Shown one piece after another: positions 2,717 to 61,512 of a stretch of DNA of 64,000 nt. How positions within the stretch are numbered: the first letter of the stretch is position 1; each line of letters begins with the position of its first letter. The notes under the pieces are model-generated. The model had not been told where the DNA came from, searched no databases, and worked only from the letters and a program-made list of their open reading frames with translations. The stretch lies in NCBI RefSeq assembly GCF_000775285.1, contig NZ_JJML01000026.1:56151-120150 (forward strand), given 5' to 3'. Origin of the DNA: Neosynechococcus sphagnicola sy1 (lineage in GTDB: Bacteria > Cyanobacteriota > Cyanobacteriia > Neosynechococcales > Neosynechococcaceae). The position numbers and the translations under genes are program-made.

Positions 2717-3622
2717 ATGATGATCAAGCATTGGTCTCTTAGTAACAAATTTAGTTTGCTATTGCTATTAATTTTCATTGGAGCGGTCTTAATTAGTGGC
2801 GTAGCCTTGTCAAGAACATTGAATCAAGTGGCTGAGAGCGTCGTTCAGGCTAAAGCCAATCTGTTATTACAAACCATGCTCTCGGTGCGGACTTATACCT
2901 CCACCCAAGTGAATCCAGAATTGGCACCTCGGCTGGAGACGGAATCAGCATTTTTGCCCCAAACAGTACCGGGCTATGCGGCTCGGGAGACCTTTGAAGA
3001 CTTTCGCAAAAACCCTGAGTACAATGATTTCTTCTACAAAGAGGCTACCCTTAATCCCACAAACTTACGGGACAAAGCAGATGGTTTTGAGTCAGAGATA
3101 GTTGAAAGCTTCCGTAATAACTCCAGCCTTAAGGAACTCAGTGGGTATCGCTCGACACCGGGGGGTGAATTGTACTACATTGCTCGCCCGATGATTATTA
3201 AGAAAGAAAGCTGTCTTCGCTGTCATAGTACCGCAGAGGCTGCTCCCAAAAGTTTAATCGCCACCTACGGCAGTGAAAATGGCTTCGGGTGGAAATTGAA
3301 CGACATTGTGGGGGCACAAATAATTTCTGTTCCTGCTCGGGAGATTATCACCAGTGCCCAACGATCCTTTGTCACCATTATGGGAATTGTGATTGCAGCG
3401 TTTGCCATTGCCCTACTGGTGATGAATCTATTTCTCAGACGGGCGGTGATTCGGCCCCTGAATCGGATTGCCAAAGCTGCCAATGAAGTCAGTACTGGCA
3501 ACATGGCGGCGGAGTTTGATGTCCAGTCCCGTGATGAAATGGGAACCCTGGCCACGGCTTTTACCCGGATGAAAACCAGTCTGGTAATGGCTATGGAGAT
3601 GCTGAGTCAACGCCGAAATTAA
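2717..3622 (+). CDS. membrane sensor stub: TM, DUF3365-like periplasmic c-type haem (CxxCH) domain, TM, HAMP; no output domain
   Basis: 301 aa. N-terminal TM (LLLLIFIGAVLISGVAL). Periplasmic domain with CLRCH. Second TM (IMGIVIAAFAIALLVMNLFL) is followed by a complete HAMP domain (RPLNRIAKAANEVSTGN...MGTLATAFTRM), and the protein ends about 20 aa later. Confidence 0.6.
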   Translation: MMIKHWSLSNKFSLLLLLIFIGAVLISGVALSRTLNQVAESVVQAKANLLLQTMLSVRTYTSTQVNPELAPRLETESAFLPQTVPGYAARETFEDFRKNPEYNDFFYKEATLNPTNLRDKADGFESEIVESFRNNSSLKELSGYRSTPGGELYYIARPMIIKKESCLRCHSTAEAAPKSLIATYGSENGFGWKLNDIVGAQIISVPAREIITSAQRSFVTIMGIVIAAFAIALLVMNLFLRRAVIRPLNRIAKAANEVSTGNMAAEFDVQSRDEMGTLATAFTRMKTSLVMAMEMLSQRRN

Positions 3623-3645
3623 GACAGGGCAACGATTCCGATGGC

Positions 3646-5557
3646 TCAGCTGGAGGGTAGCAAGACCGCCTGAAACGCTTGAGCTTGCTGAGGGTTGGCA
3701 ATGCGTTGGACAAGGGCTGCCACCAACTGACTGCGAGAGGCATGGGGGATTTCAGCCAGTGCCTCTTTTACCACTAAGGGGGCAATGGGGCCAATCGACT
3801 TTGCCAGTTCAATCTCACATCGTTGGATAAAGTCACGATCGACGGGGGGGACTGGCTGGGCTGGTTTCTGGGGCGATCGCCCCTGTCAATTGGGTGGGAG
3901 AACGGGGATCAAAGTCTTCGAGGGACTGGGTTTGCAGGAGTTCATACACTTGGGCTTGCAGCGATCGCCGAGCTGCTTCCGGGACTTGCATCAGCAATCC
4001 TTGGATAAAGCTCTGCCAGGTTGCCGCCTGTTTCAGGGATTGTTGCAGCAGCAAGGGAGCCAGGGGGCCAATCGCCTGGGTCAGGAGGGCTTCTAGTTTG
4101 TGAGCTAGGGGGGGCGGTAAGTTCAAACGACTCGGAAGAGAAGATTGGACTTCCGTGGCGACAGGGGCAAGTTGGGTCGGATTCGCAGCTGGTTTTGCAA
4201 CTTCTAAGGATGCGGGGTTAAACAGCGATTGAATTTGTGCCTGCACCTGGGGACGTGATAGCGCTGGGATTTGATTTAATAAGCGTTCCAACAACTGGTC
4301 ACAGGTGAGTCCTTCGACTAAAGCTTGGTTTAACAACAGGGGCGCGATGGGACCAATGACTTGGGTCAGTAAAGTGGCCAATTCCCGTTGGGAATTCTGC
4401 GTTAGATCGGATAACTGGGTGGAAATTTTCTGCTCCATGGCCGTAGAGGGGAACTCCCCAGGGTTCTTCTCTGGAGGGGGCAGGGTTGTCGCTGGTGGAT
4501 TCGTGCCCTCTGGAACTGGGAGGGCAGCAGGTGGATTACTGGCAGGAGCCGCAGCATCTGCACCAACGGTCGTATCAAAATTGCCAGCAACCAAAGGACG
4601 GGTCGGAGAGATCAGGGGAGGGGAGATCGCCGCTCGCAGAGACCGCTGTAAAATCTCTACCGTTGAACATCGCTGGCTGGGCTGCTTTTGGAGGCACTGC
4701 ATCACCACGGCTTCTAAAGCGGAGGGCAAGGTCTCACACCCCGGTTGCGATCGCAGGGGCTTGGGGGGCAGGCTGGTGTGGGCTCGAATCCAAGAGCTTG
4801 CCGTTGATCCCCCGGTTTTGCCCATCAAACCAAAGGGGTCGGTACCGCTGAGCATCTCATAGAGCATCATCCCGAGACTGTAGATATCAGCCCGACCATC
4901 CAGATCCATTGCTACCTCTAGTTGCTCTGGGGACGCATAGTGGAAGGTGCCAATGAACATATCCGTTTGCAGATTCGTCAGTTCTGCTTCTCCATCTAGA
5001 ATTTTGGCAATGCCAAAGTCAAGAATTTTCACCAATTCACCCAAGCCCGTCGGCACCAGAAAAATATTGTCCGGTTTCAAATCACGGTGAACAATCTTGA
5101 CTCGCTCAACTGTCTGGCTACCCTGACGTTGCAGTACCACCCCCTGATGGGCGAGTTGTAACCCAGTACACACCTGGCTGATAATGGCGACCGTATGTTC
5201 AACTGCCAGTCGTTTTTCCCGCCGGAGTAACTGTCCTAAGGTCTGTCCACTCAAATACTCCATCACAAAAAATGGATGACCTTCTGGGGTGATGCCGTAG
5301 TCGCTGACTTGAACAATATTTTCGCTACTGAGGGCTGCACACAGACTCACCTCGCGGGCAAACCGCTTCCGTACCTCTTCCGTCTCCACCAAGGCAGCTT
5401 TCAAAAGTTTGAGTGCAACTTGCTTTCCCAGCAACATATCGATGGCTAGATACACCTCACCCATCCCGCCCTGGCCCAAACGCCGTTCCAGACGATAGCG
5501 GTTTTTTTCACCAATCAAGCGCTGATGTTGAGAATCAGGCTGGGGCAGGGAACTCAT
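3646..5557 (-). CDS. Ser/Thr protein kinase with C-terminal triple IGPIA repeat module (frameshift in a G7 run at 3844-3850)
   Basis: The 574-aa ORF at 3833..5557 has Hanks kinase motifs (GQGGMGEVY, VALK, HRDLKPDNIF, DFGIAK, SPEQ). A Pro/Ala-rich linker follows, then two ~55-aa repeats (LATLLTQVIGPIAPLLLNQ; LEALLTQAIGPLAPLLLQQ). A third repeat (ELAKSIGPIAPLVVKEALAEIPHASRSQLVAAL...LLPSS*) lies directly downstream in the +1 frame. It joins the kinase frame if the C7/G7 homopolymer is shortened by one base. Confidence 0.8.
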
Positions 5558-6086
5558 GTAGCAACTTCCCGTTGTGTGAGTGAACTGAAAACTTGATTCA
5601 CAGCATACCCAACAGATACCCTGGAACCCTACATTAATTTGCTGATCTGGTTGCAGATTGCCTGCTGGTCTAGGATCTGACCTCTGCTAGGTACAAAGCT
5701 TTTCTGGACAATTTTTTGCTCCCCATCACCATATCCCAAGCCGCCGCCAGCGTGTTGATCTGCCGCTGGAGAGTCTTTTGGCTGCTGCCATTTCAGCCCT
5801 GATCAAGGGTAACCCTTGATGATACCCAGGTGAAAACTCCCCAAACCGTATCCCCAAACCCTTGAACTGCTGGGCTGCATCCCTGAGGAGTTTTTTTTCA
5901 ATGAACCAACCCCCACCCTGTGGACTGGGGTTGCTGTCAAGACCGCTGCCAGACGCTACTATCAATTGCTCAAAGCACTATCCTGATGGAGTTGGAAGTG
6001 CAAAAATGAAGCCGGGGTAGGACTCCGGGTTTTTTGATCACCCCCCAGGGATCTAGATACAGTGGTCTAACTCAAGTGAACCGTTT

Positions 6087-7601
6087 GTGATTGAAGTAGA
6101 AGTCCATCAGCAACTCTATGCATTCCTGCGGGAACAGCGCCAACCCCATTGGCCGCATCATTTGACGATGGCGCGGTTGGTGGCGAGAGCATTGCGCTTG
6201 GAACGCAGTGCTTTAATGCAAACGGGAACCCAGGAACATTATCGCCTCAGTTATCTGATGCCGTTGTTGCTGTGGCCAGGGCCAGCGATGATTGTGGCCA
6301 CCGCTGCGGTGCAGCAATGGTTGCTGATGGTGGAAATTCCCCAACTACAGCAGTGGATCCAAACTCCGAAGCCGATGCTTCAGAGCGATCGCTGGCCAGA
6401 TCCAACTTTTGAGGGGTTACTGCTGACGACGCCCGAGATCTGGCTGCTGGATCGGATCACGGGCTTGGGAAAGTTTCCTGCAGGCATTCTGACCATTCTG
6501 GATGGCGTCGATGATTTAGAAGATTGGACACGATGCGCTCTTACCCTCGACTTGCATCCCCAGGACTGGCATCACCTGACGCTGGCTCATCCCCCCCTGC
6601 TAGAGGTAATCCGAGAGACCCAGATCCAACTGACCCGATCGGTGTTTCACCACCCGCCCAATCCCTATGAGTGCCACCTGATATCCCCAGGAGAGCGGGA
6701 GATTCTGAACTATCTCTACAACCGCCTCCAGGAGGTTCTCCCTCTCCATACCCCTCCCCTGTGGAGACAATTCTGGCAGCAATGGCAACTCTCGACCTCC
6801 TTGACGTGGATGACCATTGCTCGACCGTCAGGACAGTTTTCGCTACACACAGCTCCCTCGGATGTGGCAGACGTGCTAGGGACGGTGTGGTCTCAACAAC
6901 CGGTGATTTTGATTGGCAATGCTCTGGATTTAGAAGCGGAGGCAACGCTCTATCGCCAGCGCATCGGCATTCGTGATCTCACCTGTCTGAAATTTGCCCC
7001 CGACCGCCAGCAGGAGTTGATTCAGCTCTATCTTCCCGATCACTTGCCCATGCCGAATACACCGCAGTTTCAGCCCGCCCTGCTGCAGGAAATTCGCCAG
7101 ATGTTGGCATTGCGAGCGGTGACTCTAGATCTGACCGTGATCGTGGTCGGAGACATGCCCCTGAAGGCACAACTAGCAACGGTGCTAGCGGCGGAGTTTG
7201 GCTCCCGTGTGCAGGTCGAAAAAACCAGCCTGGAACCGAACGGAATTCTGGTCACGGGCTGGGAGTTCTGGCAACAGTATCAAGGCCAACTCCCCGCGCC
7301 CCGATTATTGGCGATCGCTACCCTCCCGATTCCCTCCCTTGAAAACCCCCTCGTCGCCGGACGGGTCGCCTATTACAAGCGATCTCACCAGGACTGGTTC
7401 CGGCTGTATTTATTACCGACGGCGTTAAGTACCCTCCAACGAGCGATCGCTCCCGTGCGATCCCAACAGGGAACGGTTGCCCTCTTTGACAGCCGGGTGT
7501 TGCATCGCAGCTATGGCAAGCAGGTGCTCACCGCTTTAAGTCCCCTGGCGCGGATTAACTATTTGGAGTCTGGTGTCCGGTTTTCTTCACTGCTGGATTA
7601 G
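6087..7601 (+). CDS. DinG/Rad3-family helicase-like protein with degenerate Walker A (probably non-catalytic paralogue)
   Basis: 504 aa. The N-terminus aligns to the DinG motif I region but reads MQTGTQEHYRLSYLMPLL rather than AGTGTGKTLAYLLP. The C-terminus matches DinG motifs V/VI (LPIPSLENPLVAGRV...QGTVALFDSRVLHRSYGKQVL). Confidence 0.5.
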   Translation: MIEVEVHQQLYAFLREQRQPHWPHHLTMARLVARALRLERSALMQTGTQEHYRLSYLMPLLLWPGPAMIVATAAVQQWLLMVEIPQLQQWIQTPKPMLQSDRWPDPTFEGLLLTTPEIWLLDRITGLGKFPAGILTILDGVDDLEDWTRCALTLDLHPQDWHHLTLAHPPLLEVIRETQIQLTRSVFHHPPNPYECHLISPGEREILNYLYNRLQEVLPLHTPPLWRQFWQQWQLSTSLTWMTIARPSGQFSLHTAPSDVADVLGTVWSQQPVILIGNALDLEAEATLYRQRIGIRDLTCLKFAPDRQQELIQLYLPDHLPMPNTPQFQPALLQEIRQMLALRAVTLDLTVIVVGDMPLKAQLATVLAAEFGSRVQVEKTSLEPNGILVTGWEFWQQYQGQLPAPRLLAIATLPIPSLENPLVAGRVAYYKRSHQDWFRLYLLPTALSTLQRAIAPVRSQQGTVALFDSRVLHRSYGKQVLTALSPLARINYLESGVRFSSLLD

Positions 7602-17976: not shown

Positions 17977-19279
17977 CTAAAGTGCACTTGATTGGTTTAT
18001 CCCTGCTGCAATCCAGGGGCAGAATTGGTGCAAGCCCCAAAATAAGCTACCTGCTAGGGCAGCAGCCATAGGAATGGTCAGCAACCAAGCGAGGAGAATT
18101 CCCCTTAACGTCTGTAACCGAATTTCTAGGGGTGATCGTCGCCCCCAACTTCGAATCAACCCAATGCCGACAACTGCACCGACGAGGGCATGGGACGTAG
18201 AAACGGGGAGACCCAGGCGTGAAGCCAACAGCACCGTCGCCGCTGTTGCCAATTCGGCACAAAAACCCGCACTGGGCTGGACGGGGGGTAATCTGTTCGC
18301 CAATGGTGGTAATTACCTGGTGACCCCAGACAGCTAACCCAGCTACGATCCCGGTACCACCCAAGACAAGCATCCACAGGGGGAGATGGAGGTGATCCGT
18401 GGGCACTGCCCCGGTTTGTTGGATTTGGACGATCACAGCCAGGGGGGCAATGGCATTCCCCACATCATTGGAACCATGGGCAAAGGCCACAAAACAGGCA
18501 CTCAGAACTTGAAAGTGAGCCATGATCTGTTCGGTGAGGTTTTGGGGGGAGAGTCCCACTTGGCTGCGGACTTGGGTGAGGCGTTGCCAACTGGAACCCG
18601 TCAACATCACCAGGGCGATCGCCCCCAGCCCCAGCGCCAAGCTATGGGTGGGCAGGACAAGATCTGGGAACAGCCATGTTTGCAGGTTCAGGCTCAGGGA
18701 AGGCAGCACCAAGACACCGAACACACTCAGCAGCAGGGCACTCAGCCAGGGAATCCATTCTTGCAACTGTTGCAGGGGATGGGGTTGATCAAGAATCCAA
18801 AATTGCATTCCCCGATAGCCCAGAGCAGCAAGTCCCCCACTCACCAAAGGTGTCACCATCCAGGTCAAGGCAATACCCTGGAGCGAGTGCCAGTCCACAG
18901 CCTCGACACCCCCAGCCACCCATCCAAACCCGGCGATCGCCCCTACCACTGCATGGGAGGAGGAGACCGGCCAACCAAACCCAGTCGCCACATTGAGCCA
19001 AATGCCACTGGCCAGCAACACTGTCCCCATCCCCAACAGCAATACCTCTGGCATGGCACCGAATGGGGCGGGATCGACCACCTGGATAGCCAGGGTTTCT
19101 GACACCTGCTGGCCGAAGCAGATCGCTCCTGTAAACTCTAAAATCCCCGCAATCACTAGGGCTTGCCTCAAGGTTACAGCCTTGGAACCCACGGATGTTC
19201 CCATGGAATTGGCCACATCATTGGCACCCAGATTCCAGGCCAGGTAAAAGGCCAGCAGACTCACGAGGAGAATCATCAT
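17977..19279 (-). CDS. pit: inorganic phosphate transporter, PiT family; split by a 1-nt indel in a G6 run (18283-18288)
   Basis: ORF 18047..19279 (MMILLVSLLAFYLAWNLGANDVANSMGTSVGSKA.., GSNDVGNAIAPLAVIV) loses the family signature after GEQIT. ORF 17977..18303 supplies the missing C-terminus (SAGFCAELATAATVLLASRLGLPVSTSHALVGAVVGIGL). The two join across the homopolymer. Confidence 0.85.
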
Positions 19280-20675: not shown

Positions 20676-21447
20676 ATGTTAGCTAAACGAATTTTACCCT
20701 GCCTGGATGTGAAAGCGGGTCGGGTAGTGAAGGGGGTGAACTTTGTCGATCTCCGGGATGCTGGCGATCCGGTGGAACTGGCGCAAGCCTATAATCAGGC
20801 CGGAGCCGATGAGTTGGTATTCCTAGACATCACGGCCACCCATGAAGATCGCGGCATCATCCTGGACGTGGTTCACCGTACTGCCGAGCAGGTCTTTATT
20901 CCCCTGACGGTAGGGGGCGGGATTCAAAATTTAGACACCATTAAGCATTTGTTGCGAGCCGGAGCTGACAAGGTCAGTATTAACTCCGCCGCAGTCCGCG
21001 ACCCCGATCTGATTAATCGAGCCAGTCAACGATTTGGTAATCAATGTATTGTCGTCGCCATTGATGCGCGCCGACGAAGCGATCCAGCTCATCCGGGTTG
21101 GGATGTCTATGTCCGGGGAGGGCGAGACAATACCGGCATTGATGCCGTGCAGTGGGCACAGGAAATGGAGCAACGGGGGGCTGGGGAATTATTGATCACC
21201 AGCATGGATGCCGATGGTACTCAAGCAGGGTATGACTTAGAGCTGACCCGCCAGATTGCCGAAAAAGTTCAGATTCCCGTCATTGCCTCGGGGGGGGTCG
21301 GGCACCTGCGATCATATTCAGGCGGCATTGACGGAGGGTAGGGCAGAGGCCGCCCTCCTCGCCTCTTTGCTCCATTACGGTCAGTTGACGGTGGCTGAGA
21401 TCAAAGCCCATCTGGGGGCTCATGGTGTACCAGTGCGTACTTACTAG
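20676..21447 (+). CDS. hisF: imidazole glycerol phosphate synthase cyclase subunit HisF; split by a 1-nt insertion in a G8 run (21290-21297)
   Basis: [23 protein letters not shown]...IPVIASGG| then ..[45 protein letters not shown]. Reading the run as G7 makes it contiguous. Confidence 0.9.
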
Positions 21448-21475
21448 GTTTGGCCGGAGCAGTGATCGGATTTCA

Positions 21476-22063
21476 CTAAAATGCAGATTCTTCGAGATCA
21501 TCAAGGGGTGATTTTAATCCAAAATACTTCTGGATGGAAATCCCTATGGTGGCATCCCCTAAAGGCCACTGATCACCCAGCATGTATTGCCGATGATCCC
21601 AAATTGTCCGCAGATCCTTTTCCTTGGCCAGAAGTTCTTCTGGAGCTAACAGCTCCAGATGTTCATTGTATTTAAATATTTCCCGTGCCCTGTCAAAATT
21701 TTCCTCTGAAAACAAGGCTAGATCTTCCCAGGGCTCTGGTTCTCCCTCAACCCATTCCCAGGTAGATTGGCAACCGTCGAAAGACCAGCATAGTTTTCGT
21801 AGGATGTTTCCTTCCTTGGAATGTTCATATTCCAGTTGATCATTGCTGGTGTCTACACAAATAAAAATAGTTTCGCCAAATTGCAACGAGATCTCGGTTG
21901 TGAAGTAAGTTCCAGGTTCAAACAGTCCATCTAAATAGCTATCCCCAAAATCGCATACCACCCATTCCGAGTCAGGAATCCTACTGACTTGGCTAAAACG
22001 GTCTTTGAGGTTACTTTCAGTCGCTGGCGTTTTAATAAAAAACGCATTATAGAAGAGGCTCAT
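21476..22063 (-). CDS. hypothetical protein (AT-rich, acidic, Trp-rich; no recognisable domain)
   Basis: 195-aa ORF. Composition and codon usage are atypical for this genome. It lies immediately downstream of the stand-alone HD hydrolase on the same strand. Confidence 0.4.
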   Translation of the reverse strand: MSLFYNAFFIKTPATESNLKDRFSQVSRIPDSEWVVCDFGDSYLDGLFEPGTYFTTEISLQFGETIFICVDTSNDQLEYEHSKEGNILRKLCWSFDGCQSTWEWVEGEPEPWEDLALFSEENFDRAREIFKYNEHLELLAPEELLAKEKDLRTIWDHRQYMLGDQWPLGDATIGISIQKYFGLKSPLDDLEESAF

Positions 22064-22291
22064 TTTGCTTTTTCCCTTGCAACGATGCAGATGGGCGTCG
22101 CATCCAATTTCTAGGTTTGCGACTGATTGACCTTGTGCTTGCAGGAGATAGTCAAGACTTGATTCATAGCCCCATTTTATCTGATCAGAAATAGGTTATC
22201 AGTATGCCCGATAGATGATTGTCTGGCTCCGGATCTGCGCCGGACTCCTATTCCTCCCGACGCTCACCTGCGGTAGAGCACGGGGCTGCTG

Positions 22292-22876
22292 CTACTTTAG
22301 CTGAACTTTGTGCTCCAATTCAGTAACCACCTGATCTAAGCGTTCCACCAAGGGAGTCAGTCCCTTGGCCTTAAAGGCAGCTACCAATGAACGGTAATAC
22401 CAAAGGGTTCCATCCTTCTTACCATTGAAGCGGTTCCAGAGTTCATCGCCTAATGCGTTGTAATCTCGCAAGATCGACAGAGCATTATGCAGTTTGTCTG
22501 CGGCTGAAACGAGACGGACAGATGGACTGGCAGATTTGATATGGGTAATATAGGCTAACTTGAGATCTTTCCAAGGTAATTTGGTTTCTCCCTGACTGGT
22601 ATCTGCAACCGAATCGCTACACCCCTTCACGATCGCGGCAACTGTATCCCCGAATTGTTCCCGAATCGCCTCCAGGGTTGGCAACCCGCCCTGATCTTCC
22701 ACCGCATCATGGAGTAAAGCAGCGATCGCTTCATCTTCAGTAGCTCCATGCTCTAGAGCAATCATCGAAACTGCCATTAAGTGAGAAATATAGGGGGTGG
22801 CTGTGCCTTTGCGGGTCTGTTTGCTATGTAACGATGCAGCATATTCCAAAGCGTTATTGTAGCGATCACTCACCAT
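22292..22876 (-). CDS. stand-alone RelA/SpoT-type HD-domain (p)ppGpp-hydrolase-like protein (small alarmone hydrolase-like)
   Basis: 194 aa. HD hydrolase signature of the RelA/SpoT family (YISHLMAVSMIALEHGATEDEAIAALLHDAVED...VRLVSAADKLHNALSIL). No synthetase, TGS or ACT domains. Confidence 0.65.
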   Translation of the reverse strand: MVSDRYNNALEYAASLHSKQTRKGTATPYISHLMAVSMIALEHGATEDEAIAALLHDAVEDQGGLPTLEAIREQFGDTVAAIVKGCSDSVADTSQGETKLPWKDLKLAYITHIKSASPSVRLVSAADKLHNALSILRDYNALGDELWNRFNGKKDGTLWYYRSLVAAFKAKGLTPLVERLDQVVTELEHKVQLK

Positions 22877-23085
22877 GGGGAACCTCCTGTAAATGCAAAA
22901 CCCCCAGCGATGGCTAGGGGTCTATGGATACTTTTGGGGCAGGAAACCTGGGAACGGGCAAAGGTCTGGAGTGGGTTCACTTTCACGGCACGTTTCTCTG
23001 ACTGCCTACTTTTTTACTGTAACCATATTTTGAAGCTCTAGGGATATCGACCACCCGATCTGATGCCTAATTTAGTGCCATTGTC

Positions 23086-23721
23086 TCAGAGATAGATCAT
23101 ACTCCGACGGCTCTCAAAGTCATGTGTGGTTACGATTTCGGCGATCGCCCGCACGATCTTTGCCCCGCCTAGCTCTGATGGTTCGATGGGTGAAATAGGG
23201 GAGTAATCTGACGGCTGATCAAACATCACCCTCAGATCGATGACTGGCATTCCGGCTAAGAACGCTTCGCGGAAGATCACTTCATTGAATCCACCTAATG
23301 CGGCTTGCTCTGCGGCTCCCAGCCCAGGAATGGTGTCGTAAATGCTGCAAACTGCGGTGGGTTTCCCAACCGTGGAGAGCGATCTGAGCATCGCCCGATA
23401 GGAACTCTGAAAGTCCGTGTGGATTTTGTGGATGCGGCTCAGTGCTGCCCCTACCGTCAAAGTCATTGCCGAGAGGATACTGCTGGCGCTCAAGGCATCG
23501 TTGCCCCCCACGCTGACGACTAAGTGTGTCGTGTCTGAAGGCAGCTTCTTGAGCTGGGTGGCGACATCGGCAGTGATATTACCGTCCACCGCCAGCAAGG
23601 ATGCAATCCACCCTGGGGGAAGTGTTTGGCGGAGTTGATGAATTACGGGCGATCGGTCTGGGACGTAGCGGGCATTATCGAAGATGGAGTCCCCCACCAG
23701 TACTACATGTCCCATGTACAA
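23086..23721 (-). CDS. SGNH/GDSL-family hydrolase
   Basis: 211 aa. N-terminal GDS block (VVLVGDSIFDN), VGGND block, and a C-terminal catalytic D..H region. Confidence 0.6.
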   Translation of the reverse strand: MYMGHVVLVGDSIFDNARYVPDRSPVIHQLRQTLPPGWIASLLAVDGNITADVATQLKKLPSDTTHLVVSVGGNDALSASSILSAMTLTVGAALSRIHKIHTDFQSSYRAMLRSLSTVGKPTAVCSIYDTIPGLGAAEQAALGGFNEVIFREAFLAGMPVIDLRVMFDQPSDYSPISPIEPSELGGAKIVRAIAEIVTTHDFESRRSMIYL

Positions 23722-24279
23722 CTCCAGCAGATTTGAGGCTGAACTTTTGTTTCCAAGATTTTAATCCTTCAGTTCACTCCGGAGGTATAGCGGTTCCAGA
23801 TCGTCCATTAAAAGCTCAGCGATCGCCCTTCCTCAATCAGCTAATGTGCTCCAGTAGTACCTGATTAATATCAATTTGATAGCCAATTGCTCCAATGTAG
23901 CAAATCCTGCGGGAAACCCCGGACTATAGATGTGAATTTTGTTGACTTAAGAGCGGTTCAGTGTCGGGATGAATTGGCAAGCCCGTGCTGTATTGCCCAG
24001 TATATGCCTTTGGCGGAGCGTTGGCATAGCCTGCCGCAGGCATAGCTTTACAGCATCGGGTAGTTAACGCATTCTATTTCGCCCATTCTCGGACTTCATC
24101 TGAAAGTCCGAGAATGTTTCGAGTTGCTTAGCCAGCTTATCGGTTTGCTTTGACGTGCCCTACCCCTTAATTACGGCATTTAGAAAATAAGCTAATCAGC
24201 ATTTATTTTTTCGAGACGATCACCATGATGCATGGGTTTTGCGCCTAGTTTCATGCAGTTTGGACGCGCAACAGCTTAA

Positions 24280-25245
24280 TTAGCTTCCACTAACCCATTG
24301 GTTGGAGCTATTGAGTATCATCGTCTTCTCAAAGACTCCTACCTCATACATGACTGGAGCAGTTCGGGTCACTGTCTTTATATCTAGAACATCTCCTACT
24401 CTTCTTTCAGTGGCAGCTCCAACCCAATATACGGGAGTGGGTGTAAAAAAGTGCTGTAAATTTGGACCAGCTTGTTCAACAAATGTGCCGACTCCTGACA
24501 TTCCTATTCCTACCGAGAACTTGAGGTCAGGTAGATTACCCAAGTCGTTGATGACTAATGTTCCCTTATTTTCTGGATCTAGCTGTGGCGTACTCAGAGT
24601 TGGTGAACCTGCTGAATTATAGCCAAAAGTTGTTGAATTCAATGTTGTTGGATTTGCGTCCCTTGGCCCACTTGCCTTGTACTTGATTCCAGGCTTGAGG
24701 ATACCTGTATCACCCCAGACAAAATTGTAATCAATAAACCACTGGAATTCTATTGAATCCTGAGGAGCAATTGGATAAGGGCTGGCAAACCAAGCAAGTG
24801 ATAACATCGTGGATGTCTGTTTCGGCAATGTCTGGTAGACATATAAAACCCAATCCCGCCCTGAGTTGTTTTGGAGAGTCAAAAAATAGGGTTGAGCAGC
24901 TGCGACATCAAGATGGGGCGGTCGGTAGGCAATTGTGGTTACCAAACTCCCTTCGCCTGTGGTTACCAAACCCTCTTGATTGCTGCTTTCACACCCTGGT
25001 CCTTTTTGGCACGTAGACCTTGCATGGACATAGGGGGAACATGCATCATGCCCGTGATCTTTTAGCTTTTGCTTGAGCGCACGCACCGCGTCGTCTTTCG
25101 CAGCGTTGCACGCTTCTTCGCTACAGCCATCTCGTTCCCGATGTTCCTCCCATGAAGGGCAGCCTTTGGGGGCACTCCCTCCCACAAATGCTGTTGCTGA
25201 CATCCATCTGCCATTTGTGCTTGTTGTAGATTGTGTTGTTTCCAT
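24280..25245 (-). CDS. ORFan protein: Cys-rich N-terminal region plus Ser/Thr/Asn/Gly-rich beta-type C-terminal domain (AT-rich gene)
   Basis: 321-aa ORF. Eight Cys in residues ~28-90 (GCPSWEEHRERDGCSEEACNAAK...HDACSPYVHARSTCQKGPGCE). No signal peptide or TM. Low GC relative to its neighbours. Confidence 0.4.
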   Translation of the reverse strand: METTQSTTSTNGRWMSATAFVGGSAPKGCPSWEEHRERDGCSEEACNAAKDDAVRALKQKLKDHGHDACSPYVHARSTCQKGPGCESSNQEGLVTTGEGSLVTTIAYRPPHLDVAAAQPYFLTLQNNSGRDWVLYVYQTLPKQTSTMLSLAWFASPYPIAPQDSIEFQWFIDYNFVWGDTGILKPGIKYKASGPRDANPTTLNSTTFGYNSAGSPTLSTPQLDPENKGTLVINDLGNLPDLKFSVGIGMSGVGTFVEQAGPNLQHFFTPTPVYWVGAATERRVGDVLDIKTVTRTAPVMYEVGVFEKTMILNSSNQWVSGS

Positions 25246-25436
25246 GAAACATTTTCCTCCTTTCTAGGGGTATGAATTTTCTATCTAATTCGTCGCAACC
25301 AAGGCGATCTTTTCATGTTTAGAATGAGAGTTTTTCTCTTTTTTTCTCTGGATCGCTCATGAATCAATAATGAGGATTTTGTGTTCTCAACACCATTAAA
25401 GTTTGCAATTTTAAGAAAAAATCAAGGATTTAGCCT

Positions 25437-25583
25437 TAGAGGATGTTTTAAAAGGGTCGTCTTGAGCCTCAAATACGACTCAGTGGTGCAATCTAAAATC
25501 CATAAACCCTGATTCTGTCGTAGCGGTCTCTAGGTGGTCTGAGTGGTTGGATACACCCAGGAAGACTTTTAAAACATCCTCTT
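25437..25583. repeat. MITE-like element or long hairpin: ~20-bp near-perfect terminal inverted repeats flanking a ~95-bp core
   Basis: Left arm TTAGAGGATGTTTTAAAAG (25437-25456). Right arm CTTTTAAAACATCCTCTTAA (25563-25583), which is its reverse complement. The element lies inside a 1.2-kb AT-rich non-coding stretch. Confidence 0.45.
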
Positions 25584-26510
25584 AAAAATATTCCAAACCT
25601 AGGCTCTGTCTCGGTTGTAAATATCGAAGATCTAGTTATCTTTTCACCATTTCTAGAAGAGTTTTTTAACTTTATAAAAATCCCAAAGTTAAGGAATTTA
25701 CTTCTGATTTTCTTTTAGCAAAAGCATGCAGGTTTGAAATATCACATCTCCTGCTCCTAGATATAGAGACTATTATCAGCAGCATAAAATGTAACCATCT
25801 CAGGGTAGTACGGAGTTGATCGACTGGTGGACAGACTCATCCATGCTAGACTCCTAACTTTTGTGACGATTACCTGTCTCCAATCAGGCAGGTTAATCCT
25901 TTTGGCTGATTGATCTATCTCCAAGAGTATTTTTAACTGAAAACTTCAGAAGCTAAATACAGCAGGGCTTTAAGGCACTTCCGATAGGCACTTAGCAGCG
26001 GCTAAAGAAGAGAGCATTATTGAGGATTTTTAAATTTTGGATTTCTATTCTCTGAGCCTTTTATTACAAAAAATTATGGATATTTCAGAGAATAATGCAA
26101 AGCATAATCGTCAGAACTTACGTATCAAAAGTCGCTTTTATAACATTCTCATGGATTTAACTCTGGCTGGCGAATGATTAGTGTTTGATTTTTCTCTGGC
26201 CGAAGATATTTAGCTTCTTTATCAGTTCGAAAAACCTTTACTTTTCAATGATTTTTTCATGCTTAATGTGGGTTCGGCGAATTCAAACAATAGACAATAG
26301 TTAGGTAGCAGAATTGCCAGCCCAAAGGATATTTATCGTGCGCTGAGACCGAAGTCTCAGTAGAAATATAAAGATATCAGCATCAATTTTTACTCTTTAC
26401 CTGGGTAAGAGGTCTAGGGTAGATTGCTCCTTAACTTCCACTAAACCGACTGATTCTGGTTGAACCCTGGAACATCAAACAAAATTTTCTCGATCTTTTA
26501 TGAATCAATA

Positions 26511-27980
26511 ATGCAATCCCAATCGAGAAACCATGGGCGACGGCGAGGAGTTACTCTGACGGCTCGAGGCTCCAGGAAACTCAATCAGGCAAAAGCTAAT
26601 GCAGAAATTGAGCACAACTTTAAATACACACTCGAATCTCTCAGTGAGGAAACAGGTTTAACCTCCACGACCCTCAGCAAAATCTTTACCGGCTCGGCAG
26701 GCGTCGATAAGCGAACTTTGAAGTGCTGTTTCGCTGCTTTTAATCTCACCTTGTTAACGGAGGATTACCTCTACCTCAAACCTGCTCCCAACACTATTGC
26801 CGAGATTGGTTCTGGGCAAGCACCTGAAGCCTTCTTCAACCTTGATCCTGACTGCGATTCTCCTTCAGAGATGCTGCGCGAACCTAGGAATACCCCTCAA
26901 ACCCACAACATGGATCGACGACAAGACAAGCTGCAACCGCGTCTCCCAACCACTCCGGGCGGTCAGATGCCCCTAAGTTCAGTCTTTTACATTGACCGAC
27001 CCATCCTCGAATCTCTCTGTTATGAAGCTATTCAGCAACCTGGGGCGCTGCTAAATATCCGTGCCCCCAAGCAAATGGGCAAAACCTCCCTGATGACACG
27101 GATACTGGCTTACGCGAACACGCAAGGCTCTCTCACGGTTTCCCTGAGTTTGCAACTCGCAGATGCCGAGATTTTACAAAGCCTTGAAAGCTTCCTTAAA
27201 TGGTTCTGTGCCAGAGTCAGTCGGCAGTTGGGTGTGTCAAATGCGATCGCCGATTTTTGGGATCATTCCTTAGGCGGCAAATCAAATGCCACCGACTACT
27301 TCGAGGATGTTCTCTTAACCAACCTCGCTTGCCTGCTGGTGATGGCAATTGATGAACTCAATCAGCTTTTTGCCTACCCGGACATTGCTCGTGAATTTCT
27401 CTTACTGCTGCGAACCTGGTCTAAGCTAGCTAAAGCAAGGGTTCCAGATAGAAATCCTTGGTTTAAGCTCCGACTCGTAACGGTTTATTCCACTGAAATC
27501 TTGATGCCGCTCTCGATCAATCCCGCCCTCTTGAACACAGGGGTAGTGATCAACTTACCTGAATTTACCACTGCTCAGGTACAGGATCTATCAGAACGAT
27601 GTGGACAGGAGATCACCGCCCGACAAATCAAGCAATTAATTACCCTTTTGGGAGGACATCCCTATCGCTTGCAATTGGCATTCTATCATCTACAGCAGCA
27701 GACGATCACCCTGGAAGTACTGTTAGAAAACTCTGAGGTTGACTTGGCAATCTATGCTGAACATTTACAACAGCAGTGGTGGAACCTGCAACGCTATCCT
27801 GACTTATGGACAGTGTTTACCCAGATTGTCAGGCAGTTAGATCCAGTGGATTGCGGGGCCGAGGAAGGCTCCCAGTTACAACAGCTGGGCTTGGTACATC
27901 TGCAAGGGTTTCAGGCAAGCCTCGCTTGCGAGCTATTTCGTCCATTTTTCCGCAAGCGGCTGCCGGATCCAATCATCTAA
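26511..27980 (+). CDS. HTH (XRE-like) plus AAA-like domain ATPase (STAND-type NTPase family abundant in cyanobacteria)
   Basis: ORF 26460..27980. Probable start at MQSQSR. N-terminal helix-turn-helix (TLESLSEETGLTSTTLSKIFTG). P-loop NTPase (NIRAPKQMGKTSLMTRIL) with Walker B-like hhhhDE (LLVMAIDELNQ). Long helical C-terminus. Confidence 0.6.
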   Translation: MQSQSRNHGRRRGVTLTARGSRKLNQAKANAEIEHNFKYTLESLSEETGLTSTTLSKIFTGSAGVDKRTLKCCFAAFNLTLLTEDYLYLKPAPNTIAEIGSGQAPEAFFNLDPDCDSPSEMLREPRNTPQTHNMDRRQDKLQPRLPTTPGGQMPLSSVFYIDRPILESLCYEAIQQPGALLNIRAPKQMGKTSLMTRILAYANTQGSLTVSLSLQLADAEILQSLESFLKWFCARVSRQLGVSNAIADFWDHSLGGKSNATDYFEDVLLTNLACLLVMAIDELNQLFAYPDIAREFLLLLRTWSKLAKARVPDRNPWFKLRLVTVYSTEILMPLSINPALLNTGVVINLPEFTTAQVQDLSERCGQEITARQIKQLITLLGGHPYRLQLAFYHLQQQTITLEVLLENSEVDLAIYAEHLQQQWWNLQRYPDLWTVFTQIVRQLDPVDCGAEEGSQLQQLGLVHLQGFQASLACELFRPFFRKRLPDPII

Positions 27981-60702: not shown

Positions 60703-61512
60703 ACTTAACCCTGTATTGCAGTATTTTCCTCCAACAAACTCAGTGGGATGGTCCGGGAGAATTGATCCCAGGGCAGGGGCGGTACGGTCACCCCTGTCTT
60801 CTGTCAGCACCGCTGAAAATAACGGGCGGTGACAGGAGATCATGCCTCTTGGGGGCAGTGAACAAAAAAATACACTCGAATCCCCTACTGAAGCCATTGA
60901 CTGATTTGCCCCACCCATTCATCAAGATAGGGCTGGTTCAGTGCCAATTGGGGGTGGCAAGTCAACGACAAAGAAGGTATACAACGATCTAGGGATTGAT
61001 CTCATTAATCCTGCAAGTTACAGACAGTCTCTTCACAAAATTTACAGAAAATTCCAAGCATGACTCTCGGAAAGCTGATGATGAGACTTGCTAATATCAA
61101 CCTGGGCTTTTCCATATTTTTAGTTGAAGATGATAGACTTTGATCAGAAGTGATCAGGGTTGTGGTGAGGAGTTTTAGCTGTCGATCTCTCAATGTTGGC
61201 AATTCTGAATCCGTTGTCTTTCGCAACATTACGGACGGTTCCACTCGCAAGTTTGTCTCATATTTGTAATGTTGAATATTGAGAGAGCAGCCAATTAAAT
61301 CAACGACTCGTTTGAATATCCAAAGCTCTTAGTTATCAATGCTTTCAGGCAGCATCTATGCAAAAAAACGTTTAGCCTGTTGTGCTTTTTAGATACATTT
61401 GAAGTAGGGACTGGTGTGACTAGATCAATACAAAGCCCCTGGCGGCTGATCTAAGTTTTTCGAGGTTCTCTTGAAAATTTAATCCCAGACAGCTACTTCA
61501 CTCAGTTTAAAA

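What the first reader, a model, noticed from the sequence alone, without database searches (positions are those of the whole stretch)
21448..26510. AT-rich island with ORFans, stand-alone ppGpp-hydrolase-like HD protein, MITE-like repeat and a STAND-like HTH-ATPase at its edge
Between hisF and the HTH/AAA-like ATPase, base composition drops sharply in three places: 21476-22280, 23730-24280, and most strongly 24280-26460. This stretch contains two proteins with no recognisable homologues (21476..22063 and 24280..25245), a 194-aa RelA/SpoT-family HD hydrolase with no synthetase partner, an SGNH hydrolase, a 1.2-kb non-coding AT-rich stretch carrying a 20-bp terminal inverted repeat element, and a perfect 13-bp palindrome plus 13-bp-stem hairpin at 24033-24110. 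Composition and content suggest horizontally acquired accessory DNA. Small alarmone hydrolases occur as antitoxins to toxic alarmone synthetases and in anti-phage contexts. STAND/AAA-like ATPases with an N-terminal HTH are also plausible defence or signalling modules. No known complete defence system is recognisable.
Basis: partly seen in the sequence, partly recalled or inferred. Interest (0 to 1): 0.55.

Follow-up and report, generated by a model that had tools for sequence, protein, structure and literature searches.

The report
HTH-ATPase regulator, box array, swappable cargo
The "AT-rich island" is mostly unrelated neighbouring genes, but its right half is one copy, hit by a small transposon, of a widespread and undescribed cyanobacterial module in which a DNA-binding ATPase sits next to a conserved 200-bp DNA element that precedes a different cargo gene in each genome.

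Summary
The window comes from Neosynechococcus sphagnicola. The composition dip is real: 25.2-26.3 kb is the lowest-GC stretch of the 64 kb. Both "ORFans" have homologues. ORF 24280..25245 is a RhiA-family beta-sandwich protein. ORF 21476..22063 belongs to a small family related to DUF6928. The HD_4 hydrolase is an ordinary, widespread cyanobacterial gene with no synthetase partner. PADLOC finds nothing, and no island hallmarks are present.

The real feature is a module. The HTH-AAA_35 ATPase (26511..27980) has hundreds of cyanobacterial relatives at 60% identity or more. In 16 loci examined it is transcribed divergently from a cargo gene. Cargo varies: RhiA-like, lipase, S8/PatG protease, MACPF, peptidoglycan hydrolases, a radical-SAM peptide cluster. 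About 200 bp of conserved non-coding DNA lies 56-334 nt upstream of every cargo start. It carries CTTAA(C/G)TTT boxes at fixed spacing. It shows no RNA structure, no conserved ORF and no Rfam match.

In this window a 143-bp MITE (16-bp inverted ends, TTA duplication) splits that element. Removing it in silico restores one contiguous match.

Most likely the ATPase is a nucleotide-dependent transcription factor that controls the neighbouring cargo promoter. This is inferred, not shown.

The parts
21476..22063 (-). 195-aa protein of a small ~180-aa family distantly related to DUF6928. Function unknown. Not part of the module.
   Evidence: 78 relatives at E<=1e-3 among 1.84e9 representatives. 4 of the 36 aligned sequences hit PF21997. 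No Pfam, NCBIfam or PADLOC hit for the protein itself. GC3 0.42.
22292..22876 (-). Stand-alone RelA/SpoT-type HD hydrolase domain protein (HD_4). Neighbour, not part of the module.
   Evidence: PF13328 E=1.5e-22. The sequence shows the motifs LLHDAVED and AADKLHN. 7997 homologues at E<=1e-10, best hits Cyanothece PCC 7425 76% and Synechococcus PCC 6312 72%. Contexts are not conserved.
23086..23721 (-). SGNH/GDSL-like protein, a weak match. Neighbour.
   Evidence: Lipase_GDSL_2 E=1e-6, 29.8 bits, below the 32.9 cut-off. GDS and GGND motifs are visible in the translation. GC3 0.62.
24084..24116 (.). Perfect 13-bp-stem hairpin with a 7-nt loop, 164 nt downstream of the RhiA-like gene. Possibly its terminator, though there is no U-tract on that strand.
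   Evidence: Inverted repeat I10. Not picked up by the terminator scan.
24280..25245 (-). Cargo gene. RhiA-family protein of 321 aa: Cys-rich, disordered N-terminal ~100 aa plus a ~210-aa double beta-sandwich.
25369..25435 (-). Promoter-proximal part of the conserved cis-element (profile positions 156-223): ...CTAAATCCTTGATTTTTTCTTAAAATTGCAAACTTTAATGGTGTTGAG...
   Evidence: blastn against Okeania L031: 87% over 47 nt, E=3e-8. nhmmer 33.2 bits.
25436..25438 (.). TTA target-site duplication, left copy.
   Evidence: Read directly from the sequence.
25439..25581 (.). 143-bp MITE with perfect 16-bp terminal inverted repeats (GAGGATGTTTTAAAAG), inserted in the variable spacer of the cis-element.
   Evidence: Inverted repeat I2. 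Folds at z=-4.3 and -4.0. 15 orthologous elements lack it. Excision restores one contiguous 67.4-bit hit. A related element with similar ends and a TTA duplication is at Nostoc sp. C117 L006 1736-1932.
25582..25584 (.). TTA target-site duplication, right copy.
   Evidence: Read directly from the sequence.
25592..25706 (-). Distal part of the conserved cis-element (profile positions 23-145), including the palindrome TTAACTTT-N11-AAAGTTAA at 25666-25692.
   Evidence: nhmmer 22.0 bits. blastn block shared with L031, L088, L091 and L090. Box positions.
25707..26510 (.). AT-rich spacer (32-40% GC) with no detectable conservation, no credible ORF and no Rfam match. It presumably holds the regulator's own promoter.
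   Evidence: tblastn with neighbour proteins from other loci finds no pseudogene remnant.
26511..27980 (+). Regulator: N-terminal XRE-type HTH (~res 11-90), disordered linker (~92-161), AAA_35 P-loop NTPase with conserved Walker A and B, then a helical domain and a small beta-hairpin (winged-helix-like) domain.

Best explanation
The finding merges two things.

(1) Positions 21.4-23.8 kb hold three unrelated chromosomal genes on the minus strand: a DUF6928-related protein, a stand-alone HD_4 hydrolase and an SGNH-like protein.

(2) Positions 24.3-28.0 kb hold one copy of a widespread cyanobacterial regulatory module. It has three parts:
- An HTH-AAA_35 ATPase.
- An AT-rich divergent intergenic region that contains a conserved DNA element of about 200 bp. 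The element has 3-5 CTTAA(C/G)TTT boxes at fixed spacing (about 20, 37 and 64 nt) and two palindromes.
- A cargo gene that starts 56-334 nt beyond the element. The cargo differs from locus to locus; here it is a RhiA-family beta-sandwich protein.

Proposed mechanism (inferred, not shown): the HTH domain binds the boxes; nucleotide-dependent (and presumably signal-dependent) oligomerisation of the AAA_35 domain on the array switches the cargo promoter, probably as an activator. The regulator plus its target element therefore acts as a portable switch that has been coupled to many different output genes. Many of these encode lytic, membrane-active or secreted products.

In N. sphagnicola a 143-bp MITE has inserted into the element with a TTA duplication, and two boxes have diverged. 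This copy may therefore be rewired or decaying.

Shown: the conserved gene arrangement, the element, its non-RNA and non-coding nature, and the MITE insertion. Inferred: DNA binding, the sign of regulation, the signal and the biological role.
For: Pairing of AAA_35 and RhiA:
- Among 79 RhiA loci from reference genomes, an HTH-AAA_35 gene lies divergently upstream only in cyanobacteria: Okeania L031 (67% identical regulator), Gloeocapsa L068 and Nostoc C117 L036.
- One metagenome locus (L092) shows the same arrangement.

Arrangement:
- In 16 loci with a regulator 55-74% identical to this one, the regulator is divergent from a gene across a 0.4-1.3-kb intergenic region of 28-41% GC.

Element:
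- All-against-all blastn finds a block 70-88% identical in the intergenic regions, whatever the cargo.
- An nhmmer profile finds it in every such locus, E from 1e-26 to 1e-59, always on the cargo strand. It also finds a second copy 74 nt upstream of a MACPF gene in L096, where no regulator is adjacent.
- A 31-nt core pattern is exact in 8 loci.
- The rest of each intergenic region is unalignable.
- Boxes cluster in the element with conserved spacing.

Not RNA, not coding:
- RNAalifold gives -9.9 kcal/mol (8 sequences) and -1.4 / -2.2 kcal/mol (15 sequences, either strand), with no compensatory pairs in the 15-sequence alignment and one in the 8-sequence one.
- Rfam finds nothing.
- Indels are not multiples of three, and in-frame stops occur in L093 and L091.

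Regulator:
- The HTH region and Walker A/B are highly conserved.
- The architecture is HTH, linker, AAA+ core, helical domain and a small beta-hairpin domain.

MITE:
-.

Cargo list:
-.
Against: - No experiment or transcript data exist: no mapped transcription start site, no binding data.
- No sigma-70-consensus promoter is predicted inside the element in three loci tested. Counts were at or below the shuffled expectation. That fits an activator-dependent promoter, but it is also simply an absence of evidence.
- The AAA_35 model is only moderately confident (pLDDT 66, pTM 0.40), and its structural matches are generic AAA+ proteins.
- The protein has no obvious sensor domain.
- The regulator's own upstream region shows no conserved box, so autoregulation is not indicated.
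- The sample of loci is small (about 16) and comes from only two scans.
- More distant AAA_35 relatives (<=44% identity: L036, L099-L102) lack the element. The rule therefore holds for one clade only.
Confidence: 0.6

Rival explanations
1. The whole stretch 21.4-26.5 kb is a horizontally acquired accessory or defence island.
For: - Low GC3 in the 195-aa ORF and in RhiA, and a very AT-rich 1.2 kb.
- A MITE is present.
- In Synechococcus PCC 6312 the HD_4 orthologue lies between prophage-like small ORFs and a type I restriction-modification system with toxin-antitoxin genes.
- Much of the cargo in sister modules looks like effectors: MACPF, lipase, peptidoglycan hydrolases.
Against: - No tRNA. 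No integrase or recombinase domain in the six ORFs scanned. No flanking repeats that would mark boundaries.
- PADLOC finds nothing.
- SGNH, AAA_35 and the 318-aa ORF have host-like GC3.
- The best HD_4 hits are other cyanobacteria.
- The intergenic AT-richness is shared by all orthologous modules.
- None of the 195-aa ORF, HD and SGNH co-occurs with the module in about 100 other loci.
Confidence: 0.2
2. The conserved 200-nt element is a structured RNA, either a cis-regulatory leader or a small RNA, that controls the cargo.
For: - It lies between the presumed promoter region and the cargo start.
- It contains a palindrome that could form a 10-bp hairpin.
Against: - There is no consensus structure on either strand, and the covariation term is positive, meaning a penalty.
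- The left arm of the palindrome varies without compensation, while the right arm is invariant.
- The element tolerates a 143-bp insertion here.
- Rfam finds nothing.
Confidence: 0.05
3. The element is a recombination or attachment site, and the locus is an integron-like platform where cargo cassettes are exchanged. Alternatively it is an iteron-type replication origin served by an Orc/Cdc6-like AAA+ protein.
For: - Variable cargo sits directly beside a conserved site, next to a conserved divergent gene.
- L096 has two tandem element-gene units.
- The region is AT-rich with repeated boxes.
Against: - No recombinase, transposase or replication genes were seen in the gene tables of the loci examined.
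- The element keeps a tight distance to the cargo start (mostly 56-170 nt) but a loose one to the regulator (100-970 nt).
- It also occurs in front of a gene that has no adjacent regulator.
- The loci are chromosomal, and one contig carries at least two paralogues.
- The module is absent from viral contigs, and close relatives are absent from plasmids.
Confidence: 0.08
4. The HD_4 protein is the antitoxin (small alarmone hydrolase) of a toxic alarmone-synthetase module, or part of an anti-phage system.
For: - Small alarmone hydrolases can neutralise toxSAS toxins (PMC7229694).
- The RSH hydrolase motifs are intact.
Against: - No RelA_SpoT synthetase domain is present in the neighbours, here or in L109 and L110.
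- The gene is separated from both neighbours by more than 200 bp.
- About 8000 close homologues exist as stand-alone genes across cyanobacteria.
Confidence: 0.03

Closest known systems
STAND/LAL-type ATP-dependent transcription activators (MalT, AfsR/SARP-LAL, GutR); comparison from established knowledge
   Same: - A P-loop NTPase domain fused to an HTH.
- The gene sits beside its target genes.
- The target promoter carries an array of repeated boxes upstream of a weak core promoter.
- Nucleotide-driven oligomerisation is the expected switch.
   Different: - The HTH is N-terminal and XRE-like, not a C-terminal LuxR or SARP type.
- The NTPase is Pfam AAA_35, not the MalT/NB-ARC type.
- There is no C-terminal TPR or other sensor repeat domain.
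- The protein is only 489 aa.
- The effector ligand is unknown.
RhiR-rhiABC of Rhizobium leguminosarum, and the PSMB/RhiA family of Pectobacterium (PMC13490719)
   Same: The cargo protein is a RhiA-family member (PF27136). It has the same all-beta, two-lobed fold type, and the gene is under a dedicated adjacent regulator.
   Different: - No rhiB, rhiC, rhiI or LuxR-type RhiR is present.
- The regulator is an HTH-AAA_35 ATPase.
- The N. sphagnicola protein has an extra Cys-rich N-terminal ~100 aa.
- The ligand is unknown.
NTP-dependent conflict systems of multicellular bacteria (Kaur et al. 2020, PMC7159879)
   Same: - Concentrated in cyanobacteria.
- An AAA+/STAND-like NTPase is combined with a changing repertoire of effector-like proteins such as peptidases, lipases and pore-formers.
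- A newer Pfam release labels the N-terminal HTH of one relative HTH_VMAP-M9.
   Different: - There are no vWA or MoxR partners.
- The effectors are separate genes linked through a cis-element, not fused domains.
- AAA_35 is not mentioned in that paper.
- Walker motifs are intact, unlike in the iSTAND proteins.
Bacterial MITEs with 3-bp TTA/TNA target duplications (IS5-type); comparison from established knowledge
   Same: - 143 bp with perfect 16-bp terminal inverted repeats.
- A TTA duplication.
- A strong fold-back structure and no ORF.
- A related copy in another cyanobacterium.
   Different: - The parent IS is not identified.
- Copy number in the N. sphagnicola genome could not be measured.
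Small alarmone hydrolases (SAH) of the RelA/SpoT superfamily
   Same: A single HD_4 domain of about 190 aa with the conserved HD and ED motifs.
   Different: There is no partner synthetase. The protein belongs to a large family that seems to be inherited vertically in cyanobacteria. Its substrate has not been tested.

Membership tests
RhiA family (PF27136) | Significant sequence match to the family and its conserved core | tested here: met
   Precomputed PF27136 hit for this exact protein. The alignment with 45 homologues has 15 invariant columns including GIGMSG. 127 confirmed hits in reference genomes (79 loci kept), including Rhizobium rhiA loci. The local Pfam copy lacks this model.
RhiA family (PF27136) | rhiABC operon under the quorum-sensing regulator RhiR | tested here: not met
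   No LuxR-type gene and no rhiB/C-like neighbours. The neighbours are the AAA_35 regulator and an SGNH-like gene.
AAA_35 (PF14516) P-loop NTPases | Full-length match to the domain, with Walker A GK[ST] and Walker B hhhhDE | tested here: met
   E=2.2e-120 over profile positions 2-330 of 331. K187-Q-M-G-K191 and S193 are invariant, T192, D281 and E282 nearly so, in 33 sequences.
STAND NTPases | NBD, helical domain and winged-helix module followed by a C-terminal repeat sensor (TPR, WD40 or LRR) | tested here: inconclusive
MalT/LAL transcription activators | C-terminal LuxR-type HTH and a MalT-type NTPase | tested here: not met
   The HTH is N-terminal and XRE-like (HTH_3, E=0.003). There is no GerE/LuxR hit.
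Operator array / activator-dependent promoter | Repeated short boxes at fixed spacing, conserved in sequence but not in RNA pairing, at a fixed distance from the regulated gene's start | tested here: met
   Boxes at intervals of about 20, 37 and 64 nt in L088, L095 and L096, and 64 plus about 58 nt in L089 and L091. The element lies 56-334 nt from the cargo start in 16 loci. No covariation.
Operator array / activator-dependent promoter | Binding by the cognate regulator, and regulator-dependent transcription | not testable with these tools
   Needs EMSA or footprinting, reporter fusions and TSS mapping.
Structured non-coding RNA | Conserved secondary structure supported by compensatory changes, or a match to a known family | tested here: not met
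   RNAalifold gives -1.4 and -2.2 kcal/mol with 0 compensatory pairs in 15 sequences. Four Rfam searches found no match at gathering score and only chance-level sub-threshold hits.
MITE | Terminal inverted repeats, target-site duplication, no ORF, small size | tested here: met
   16-bp perfect TIR, TTA on both sides, 143 bp. No ORF lies wholly within it; one 43-aa chance ORF overlaps its left half.
MITE | Insertion polymorphism: empty sites in homologous sequences | tested here: met
   15 orthologous elements lack it. In-silico excision turns two partial hits (33.2 and 22.0 bits) into one of 67.4 bits spanning profile positions 23-223.
MITE | Multiple copies in the host genome | not testable with these tools
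   There is one copy in the 64-kb window. The host genome was not returned by the reference-genome scan. Indirect hints: a Logan contig breaks inside the element, and a related element exists in Nostoc C117.
Genomic island | Integrase or tRNA boundary, flanking direct repeats, uniformly atypical composition, absence from relatives | tested here: not met
   No tRNA in the window. No integrase domain in the six ORFs scanned. Composition is mixed. Absence from relatives could not be tested.
Known anti-phage defence systems (PADLOC-DB v2) | A match of any component to a defence-system model | tested here: not met
   0 families for all six proteins at E<=0.01.
toxSAS-SAH toxin-antitoxin modules | SAH gene adjacent to, and co-transcribed with, a small alarmone synthetase toxin | tested here: not met
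   No RelA_SpoT synthetase domain in the neighbours, here or in L109 and L110. Intergenic gaps are 228 and 209 bp.

The most novel reading that the evidence does not exclude
HTH-AAA_35 regulators with their CTTAA(C/G)TTT box array are a previously unrecognised, clade-wide cyanobacterial switch. It wires one conserved ATP-dependent sensor and transcription factor to interchangeable effector genes: MACPF pore-former, lipases and phospholipase-like proteins, S8/PatG proteases, peptidoglycan hydrolases, a radical-SAM peptide cluster and RhiA-like binders. In other words, it would be a transcriptionally coupled conflict, programmed-lysis or antagonism system in which the effector is exchanged as a separate gene behind a portable promoter, not as a fused domain.
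Probability: 0.3. Interest if true: 0.8.

Novelty: new variant of a known kind. Interest (0 to 1): 0.55.

Why it matters
AAA_35 proteins number in the thousands in cyanobacteria. They are annotated only as "AAA-like domain-containing protein", or wrongly as "serine/threonine protein kinase" or "TIR protein". No paper in the searched library mentions PF14516.

This analysis links one large clade of them to a defined 200-bp DNA target and to specific neighbouring output genes. That gives the family a testable function. It also gives a way to predict its regulon from sequence, by scanning for the element.

It offers a first regulatory handle on cyanobacterial RhiA-like, MACPF, lipase and cell-wall-hydrolase genes, which may act in lysis, antagonism or defence.

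The MITE insertion shows how a mobile element can rewire or disable such a switch.

For genome scanning, the case shows that an "AT-rich ORFan island" can be a composite of ordinary genes and one conserved regulatory module.

Tried and rejected
- Pseudogene remnants in the 1.2 kb. tblastn with sigma-factor, TPR, Uma2 and other neighbour proteins from RhiA loci found nothing.
- Known RNA families. Four Rfam searches found no match at gathering score and only chance-level sub-threshold hits.
- Structured RNA. There is no consensus fold or covariation on either strand.
- A small ORF in the element. The L031 reading frame is interrupted by stops in L093 and L091, and indels are not multiples of three.
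- The 29-nt direct repeat 25344-25372 / 26485-26513 as an autoregulatory operator or an insertion scar. The copy at the regulator's start is not conserved in other loci, so it is treated as local or chance similarity. The first copy overlaps the conserved 3' end of the element.
- TIR-AAA_35 fusions as support for a STAND-effector logic. The "TIR protein" annotation on a Calothrix plasmid is wrong; the protein is HTH + AAA_35.
- Phage or plasmid carriage. The element pattern and the protein are absent from viral contigs. Only relatives below 46% identity occur on plasmids.
- An ECF sigma factor as part of the module here. A sigma gene precedes RhiA in several cyanobacteria and Acidobacteriota, but none was found near this locus.
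- Literature on AAA_35. Searches found nothing relevant.
- Sigma-70 promoter consensus in the element. None was found.
- Structure of the 195-aa protein.

Full report
SOURCE AND OBSERVATION

The 321-aa ORF is 100% identical to a protein of Neosynechococcus sphagnicola, so the window is from that cyanobacterium. A Logan contig is base-for-base identical to window 24018-25464.

The composition claim holds. Window GC is 51.7%, and 300-bp windows have an sd of 4.8%. All windows from 25201 to about 26300 lie at 32-39% GC, the lowest values in the 64 kb.

GC3 is low for ORF 21476..22063 (0.42) and ORF 24280..25245 (0.40). It is intermediate for the HD gene (0.48). It is host-like for the SGNH-like gene (0.62), the ATPase (0.52) and the 318-aa ORF beyond it (0.53).

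THE GENES

Neither "ORFan" is an orphan.

- ORF 24280..25245 is a RhiA-family protein (PF27136, a model newer than the local Pfam copy). The protein search found 45 other homologues. The reference-genome scan gave 127 confirmed hits (79 loci kept), covering Rhizobium, Pseudomonas, Serratia, actinomycetes, Bacteroidota, Acidobacteriota and seven cyanobacteria.
- Its AlphaFold model is confident over most of residues ~110-321. That region is all-beta and forms two sandwich lobes. The Cys-rich N-terminal 100 residues are disordered.
- A 2026 paper reports that a RhiA-like protein of Pectobacterium binds plant secondary metabolites with sub-micromolar affinity (PMC13490719). The family is therefore plausibly a small-molecule binder.
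- ORF 21476..22063 has 78 relatives at E<=1e-3 in an exhaustive search. Four of the 36 aligned sequences match DUF6928. Its function is unknown.
- The HD protein is a genuine RelA/SpoT-type hydrolase domain. It belongs to a very large family of stand-alone cyanobacterial proteins of about 190 aa. Its best hits are in Cyanothece PCC 7425 (76%) and Synechococcus PCC 6312 (72%).
- The genomic contexts of the HD gene in those two organisms are unrelated to each other and to this window. None contains an alarmone synthetase.
- The SGNH assignment is below Pfam's threshold.
- PADLOC matches none of six proteins. There is no tRNA and no Rfam family in the window.

THE CONSERVED PAIR

Among the 79 RhiA loci, tblastn with the window's ATPase hits only cyanobacterial loci, and always divergently upstream of RhiA. 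The hits are Okeania sp. SIO2B3 (L031, 67% identity, directly adjacent), Gloeocapsa (L068, 44.5%) and Nostoc sp. C117 (L036, 35%). In the last two an ECF-type sigma gene lies in between.

None of the other genes in the finding has a homologue in any RhiA locus. The HTH-AAA_35 gene and the RhiA-like gene therefore belong together. The three genes to their left do not.

A FAMILY OF REGULATORS WITH CHANGING NEIGHBOURS

The ATPase has 1581 homologues at E<=1e-60. The best 120 are at least 60% identical and almost all from cyanobacteria, including Nostoc, Okeania, Lyngbya and Nodularia. Two lie on one 8.3-Mb contig.

I examined 17 metagenome loci and five genome loci. Wherever enough upstream sequence was present, the regulator is transcribed divergently from another gene. 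The intergenic region between them is 0.4-1.3 kb long and 28-41% GC.

The other gene differs from locus to locus:

| Cargo | Loci |
|---|---|
| RhiA-like | window, L031, L092 |
| Lipase_3 | L091 |
| S8 subtilase with PatG domains | L093, L095 |
| 717-aa protein with a weak lysophospholipase hit, then a MACPF protein | L096 |
| FG-GAP propeller | L098 |
| Peptidase_S74 | L106 |
| Peptidase_M15_4 and Amidase_2, both with peptidoglycan-binding domains | L107 |
| 65-aa ORF with radical-SAM and C39-like peptidase genes | L105 |
| Proteins without a Pfam match | L088, L089, L104, L108 |

THE CONSERVED ELEMENT

All-against-all blastn of these intergenic regions shows one shared block of about 180-260 nt at 70-88% identity. 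The block is independent of the cargo. Everything else is unalignable.

A profile of eight copies (alignment A4) finds the element in every locus of this regulator clade, with E from 1e-26 to 1e-59. It is always on the cargo strand, 56-334 nt (mostly 56-170 nt) from the cargo start and 100-970 nt from the regulator start.

L096 has a second copy 74 nt upstream of the MACPF gene, with no regulator beside it. Regulators that are 44% identical or less lack the element, or show only a weak trace in L068.

The most conserved stretches are AAGTTAAG, CTGAAA, CTTAACTTTTTTCTTAAA and AAACTTTG. They resolve into:
- 3-5 CTTAA(C/G)TTT boxes at intervals of about 20, 37 and 64 nt;
- a palindrome TTAACTTTGG-N7-CCAAAGTTAA;
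- in many copies, a second palindrome AAAGTT-GCA-AACTTT.

The element is not a structured RNA. RNAalifold energies are -9.9 kcal/mol (8 sequences) and -1.4 / -2.2 kcal/mol (15 sequences, either strand). The 15-sequence alignment has no compensatory pairs and the 8-sequence one has a single one. The left palindrome arm drifts while the right arm is invariant.

It matches no Rfam family. It has no conserved reading frame. No sigma-70-consensus promoter is predicted in it.

THE MITE

In the window the element appears as two pieces, 25369-25435 and 25592-25706. Between them lies a 143-bp element, 25439-25581. It has perfect 16-bp terminal inverted repeats (GAGGATGTTTTAAAAG) and is flanked by TTA on both sides (25436-25438 and 25582-25584).

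Removing 25439-25584 in silico turns two partial profile hits (33.2 and 22.0 bits) into one contiguous hit of 67.4 bits over profile positions 23-223. Fifteen orthologous elements lack the insertion.

A related element with similar ends and a TTA duplication lies downstream of the AAA_35 gene of Nostoc sp. C117 (L006 1736-1932).

The window's copy is also the most divergent of all. Two boxes are changed: CCTTGATTTTTT replaces CCTTAACTTTTTT, and CTAGATCTTCGAT replaces CTTAAGTTTTCGAT.

THE REGULATOR

The N-terminal HTH region and the Walker A and B motifs are invariant or nearly so across 33 homologues.

No solved structure is related by sequence. No paper in the library mentions PF14516.

Public annotations as "serine/threonine protein kinase" and "TIR protein" are not supported by domain searches.

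MECHANISM

The simplest reading is an ATP-dependent transcription factor whose HTH recognises the box array in front of the neighbouring gene. The comparison with MalT and LAL-type regulators rests on established knowledge. In those proteins, nucleotide- and ligand-driven oligomerisation on repeated boxes activates a promoter that lacks a good core consensus.

The following are inferred and untested: that the protein binds the element, the sign of regulation, the signal and the physiological role.

The cargo repertoire suggests lysis, antagonism or conflict functions, because it includes a pore-former, lipases, proteases, cell-wall hydrolases and a peptide cluster. Scavenging exo-enzymes under a nutrient-sensing regulator would fit as well.

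RIVALS

- A single acquired island is not supported by boundaries, content or uniform composition. It cannot be excluded for the 195-aa ORF and the RhiA gene, and synteny with close relatives could not be checked.
- An RNA element is disfavoured by the structure tests.
- A toxSAS-SAH module is excluded by the absence of a synthetase.

VERDICT

The island and defence interpretation is only partly supported.

What is really there is an ordinary trio of genes plus one MITE-disrupted copy of a widespread regulator-operator-cargo module that appears to be undescribed. I rate it a new variant of a known kind (NTPase-coupled, neighbour-controlling transcription regulators). Interest is moderate, and would be higher if the conflict-system reading proves true.

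Noticed in passing
window 20676-21447: hisF appears frameshifted. ORF 20676..21341 (221 aa) ends prematurely, and an overlapping ORF 21256..21447 in another frame carries the HisF C-terminus. This is either a sequencing error or a pseudogene. The C-terminal ~90 aa of the upstream transporter-like ORF 18047..19279 also look out of frame.
   Followed up: no
L002, L004/L008, L029, L036, L068 (cyanobacteria); L038, L054, L061, L082 (Acidobacteriota): An ECF-type sigma-70 gene lies directly upstream of the RhiA-family gene in many loci. This is a second recurrent regulatory association of RhiA, and it is absent in N. sphagnicola.
   Followed up: partly
L002 9162-16808; L004 9253-15041: In Planktothricoides and Microcoleus the RhiA-like gene is followed by ATP-grasp ligases, methyltransferases or an acetyltransferase, and an ABC exporter. 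This looks like a graspetide-type peptide cluster.
   Followed up: no
L096 1317-2926: A second copy of the conserved element (2752-2926) lies 74 nt upstream of a MACPF (perforin-like) gene, directly downstream of the first cargo gene. These are two tandem element-gene units behind one regulator.
   Followed up: partly
L111 (Calothrix brevissima NIES-22 plasmid5) 2902-6399: The gene annotated "TIR protein" is HTH + AAA_35 with no TIR domain. The next gene fuses an AAA_35-like domain to HisKA + HATPase_c, so AAA_35 also occurs as the N-terminal module of a histidine kinase.
   Followed up: partly
window 26511-27980: NCBI names this protein "serine/threonine protein kinase". No kinase domain is detectable, only HTH + AAA_35. 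The same misnaming recurs in Okeania, Symploca and Richelia entries.
   Followed up: yes
window 25344-25372 and 26485-26513: A 29-nt direct repeat (24/29 identical, core ATGAATCAATAATG). One copy is at the 3' end of the conserved element and the other overlaps the regulator's start codon. The second copy is not conserved in other loci, so its meaning is unclear.
   Followed up: partly
L109 (Synechococcus sp. PCC 6312) 1-20609: The HD_4 orthologue sits between a run of small unannotated ORFs with an integrase fragment and a type I restriction-modification system that is interleaved with PIN and HepT/MNT toxin-antitoxin genes. A second, weaker HD_4 gene lies 9 kb away.
   Followed up: no
window 23086-23721: The SGNH-like protein has the GDS and GGND blocks. 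Where the catalytic DxxH block is expected, it appears to read PIEPSE (Glu in place of His). It may be a non-canonical or inactive member.
   Followed up: no
window 24018-24046 and 25464: The identical Logan contig ends at the GCATAGCCTGCCGCAGGCATAGC palindrome on one side and inside the MITE on the other. This suggests that both sequences are repeated elsewhere in the genome.
   Followed up: no
window ~2501-2800 and 61001-61500: These are the only other stretches below 40% GC in the window. They were not examined.
   Followed up: no
L031 7990-8577: In Okeania the RhiA-like cargo is followed by a 195-aa protein with a phage tail collar domain (PF07484).
   Followed up: no
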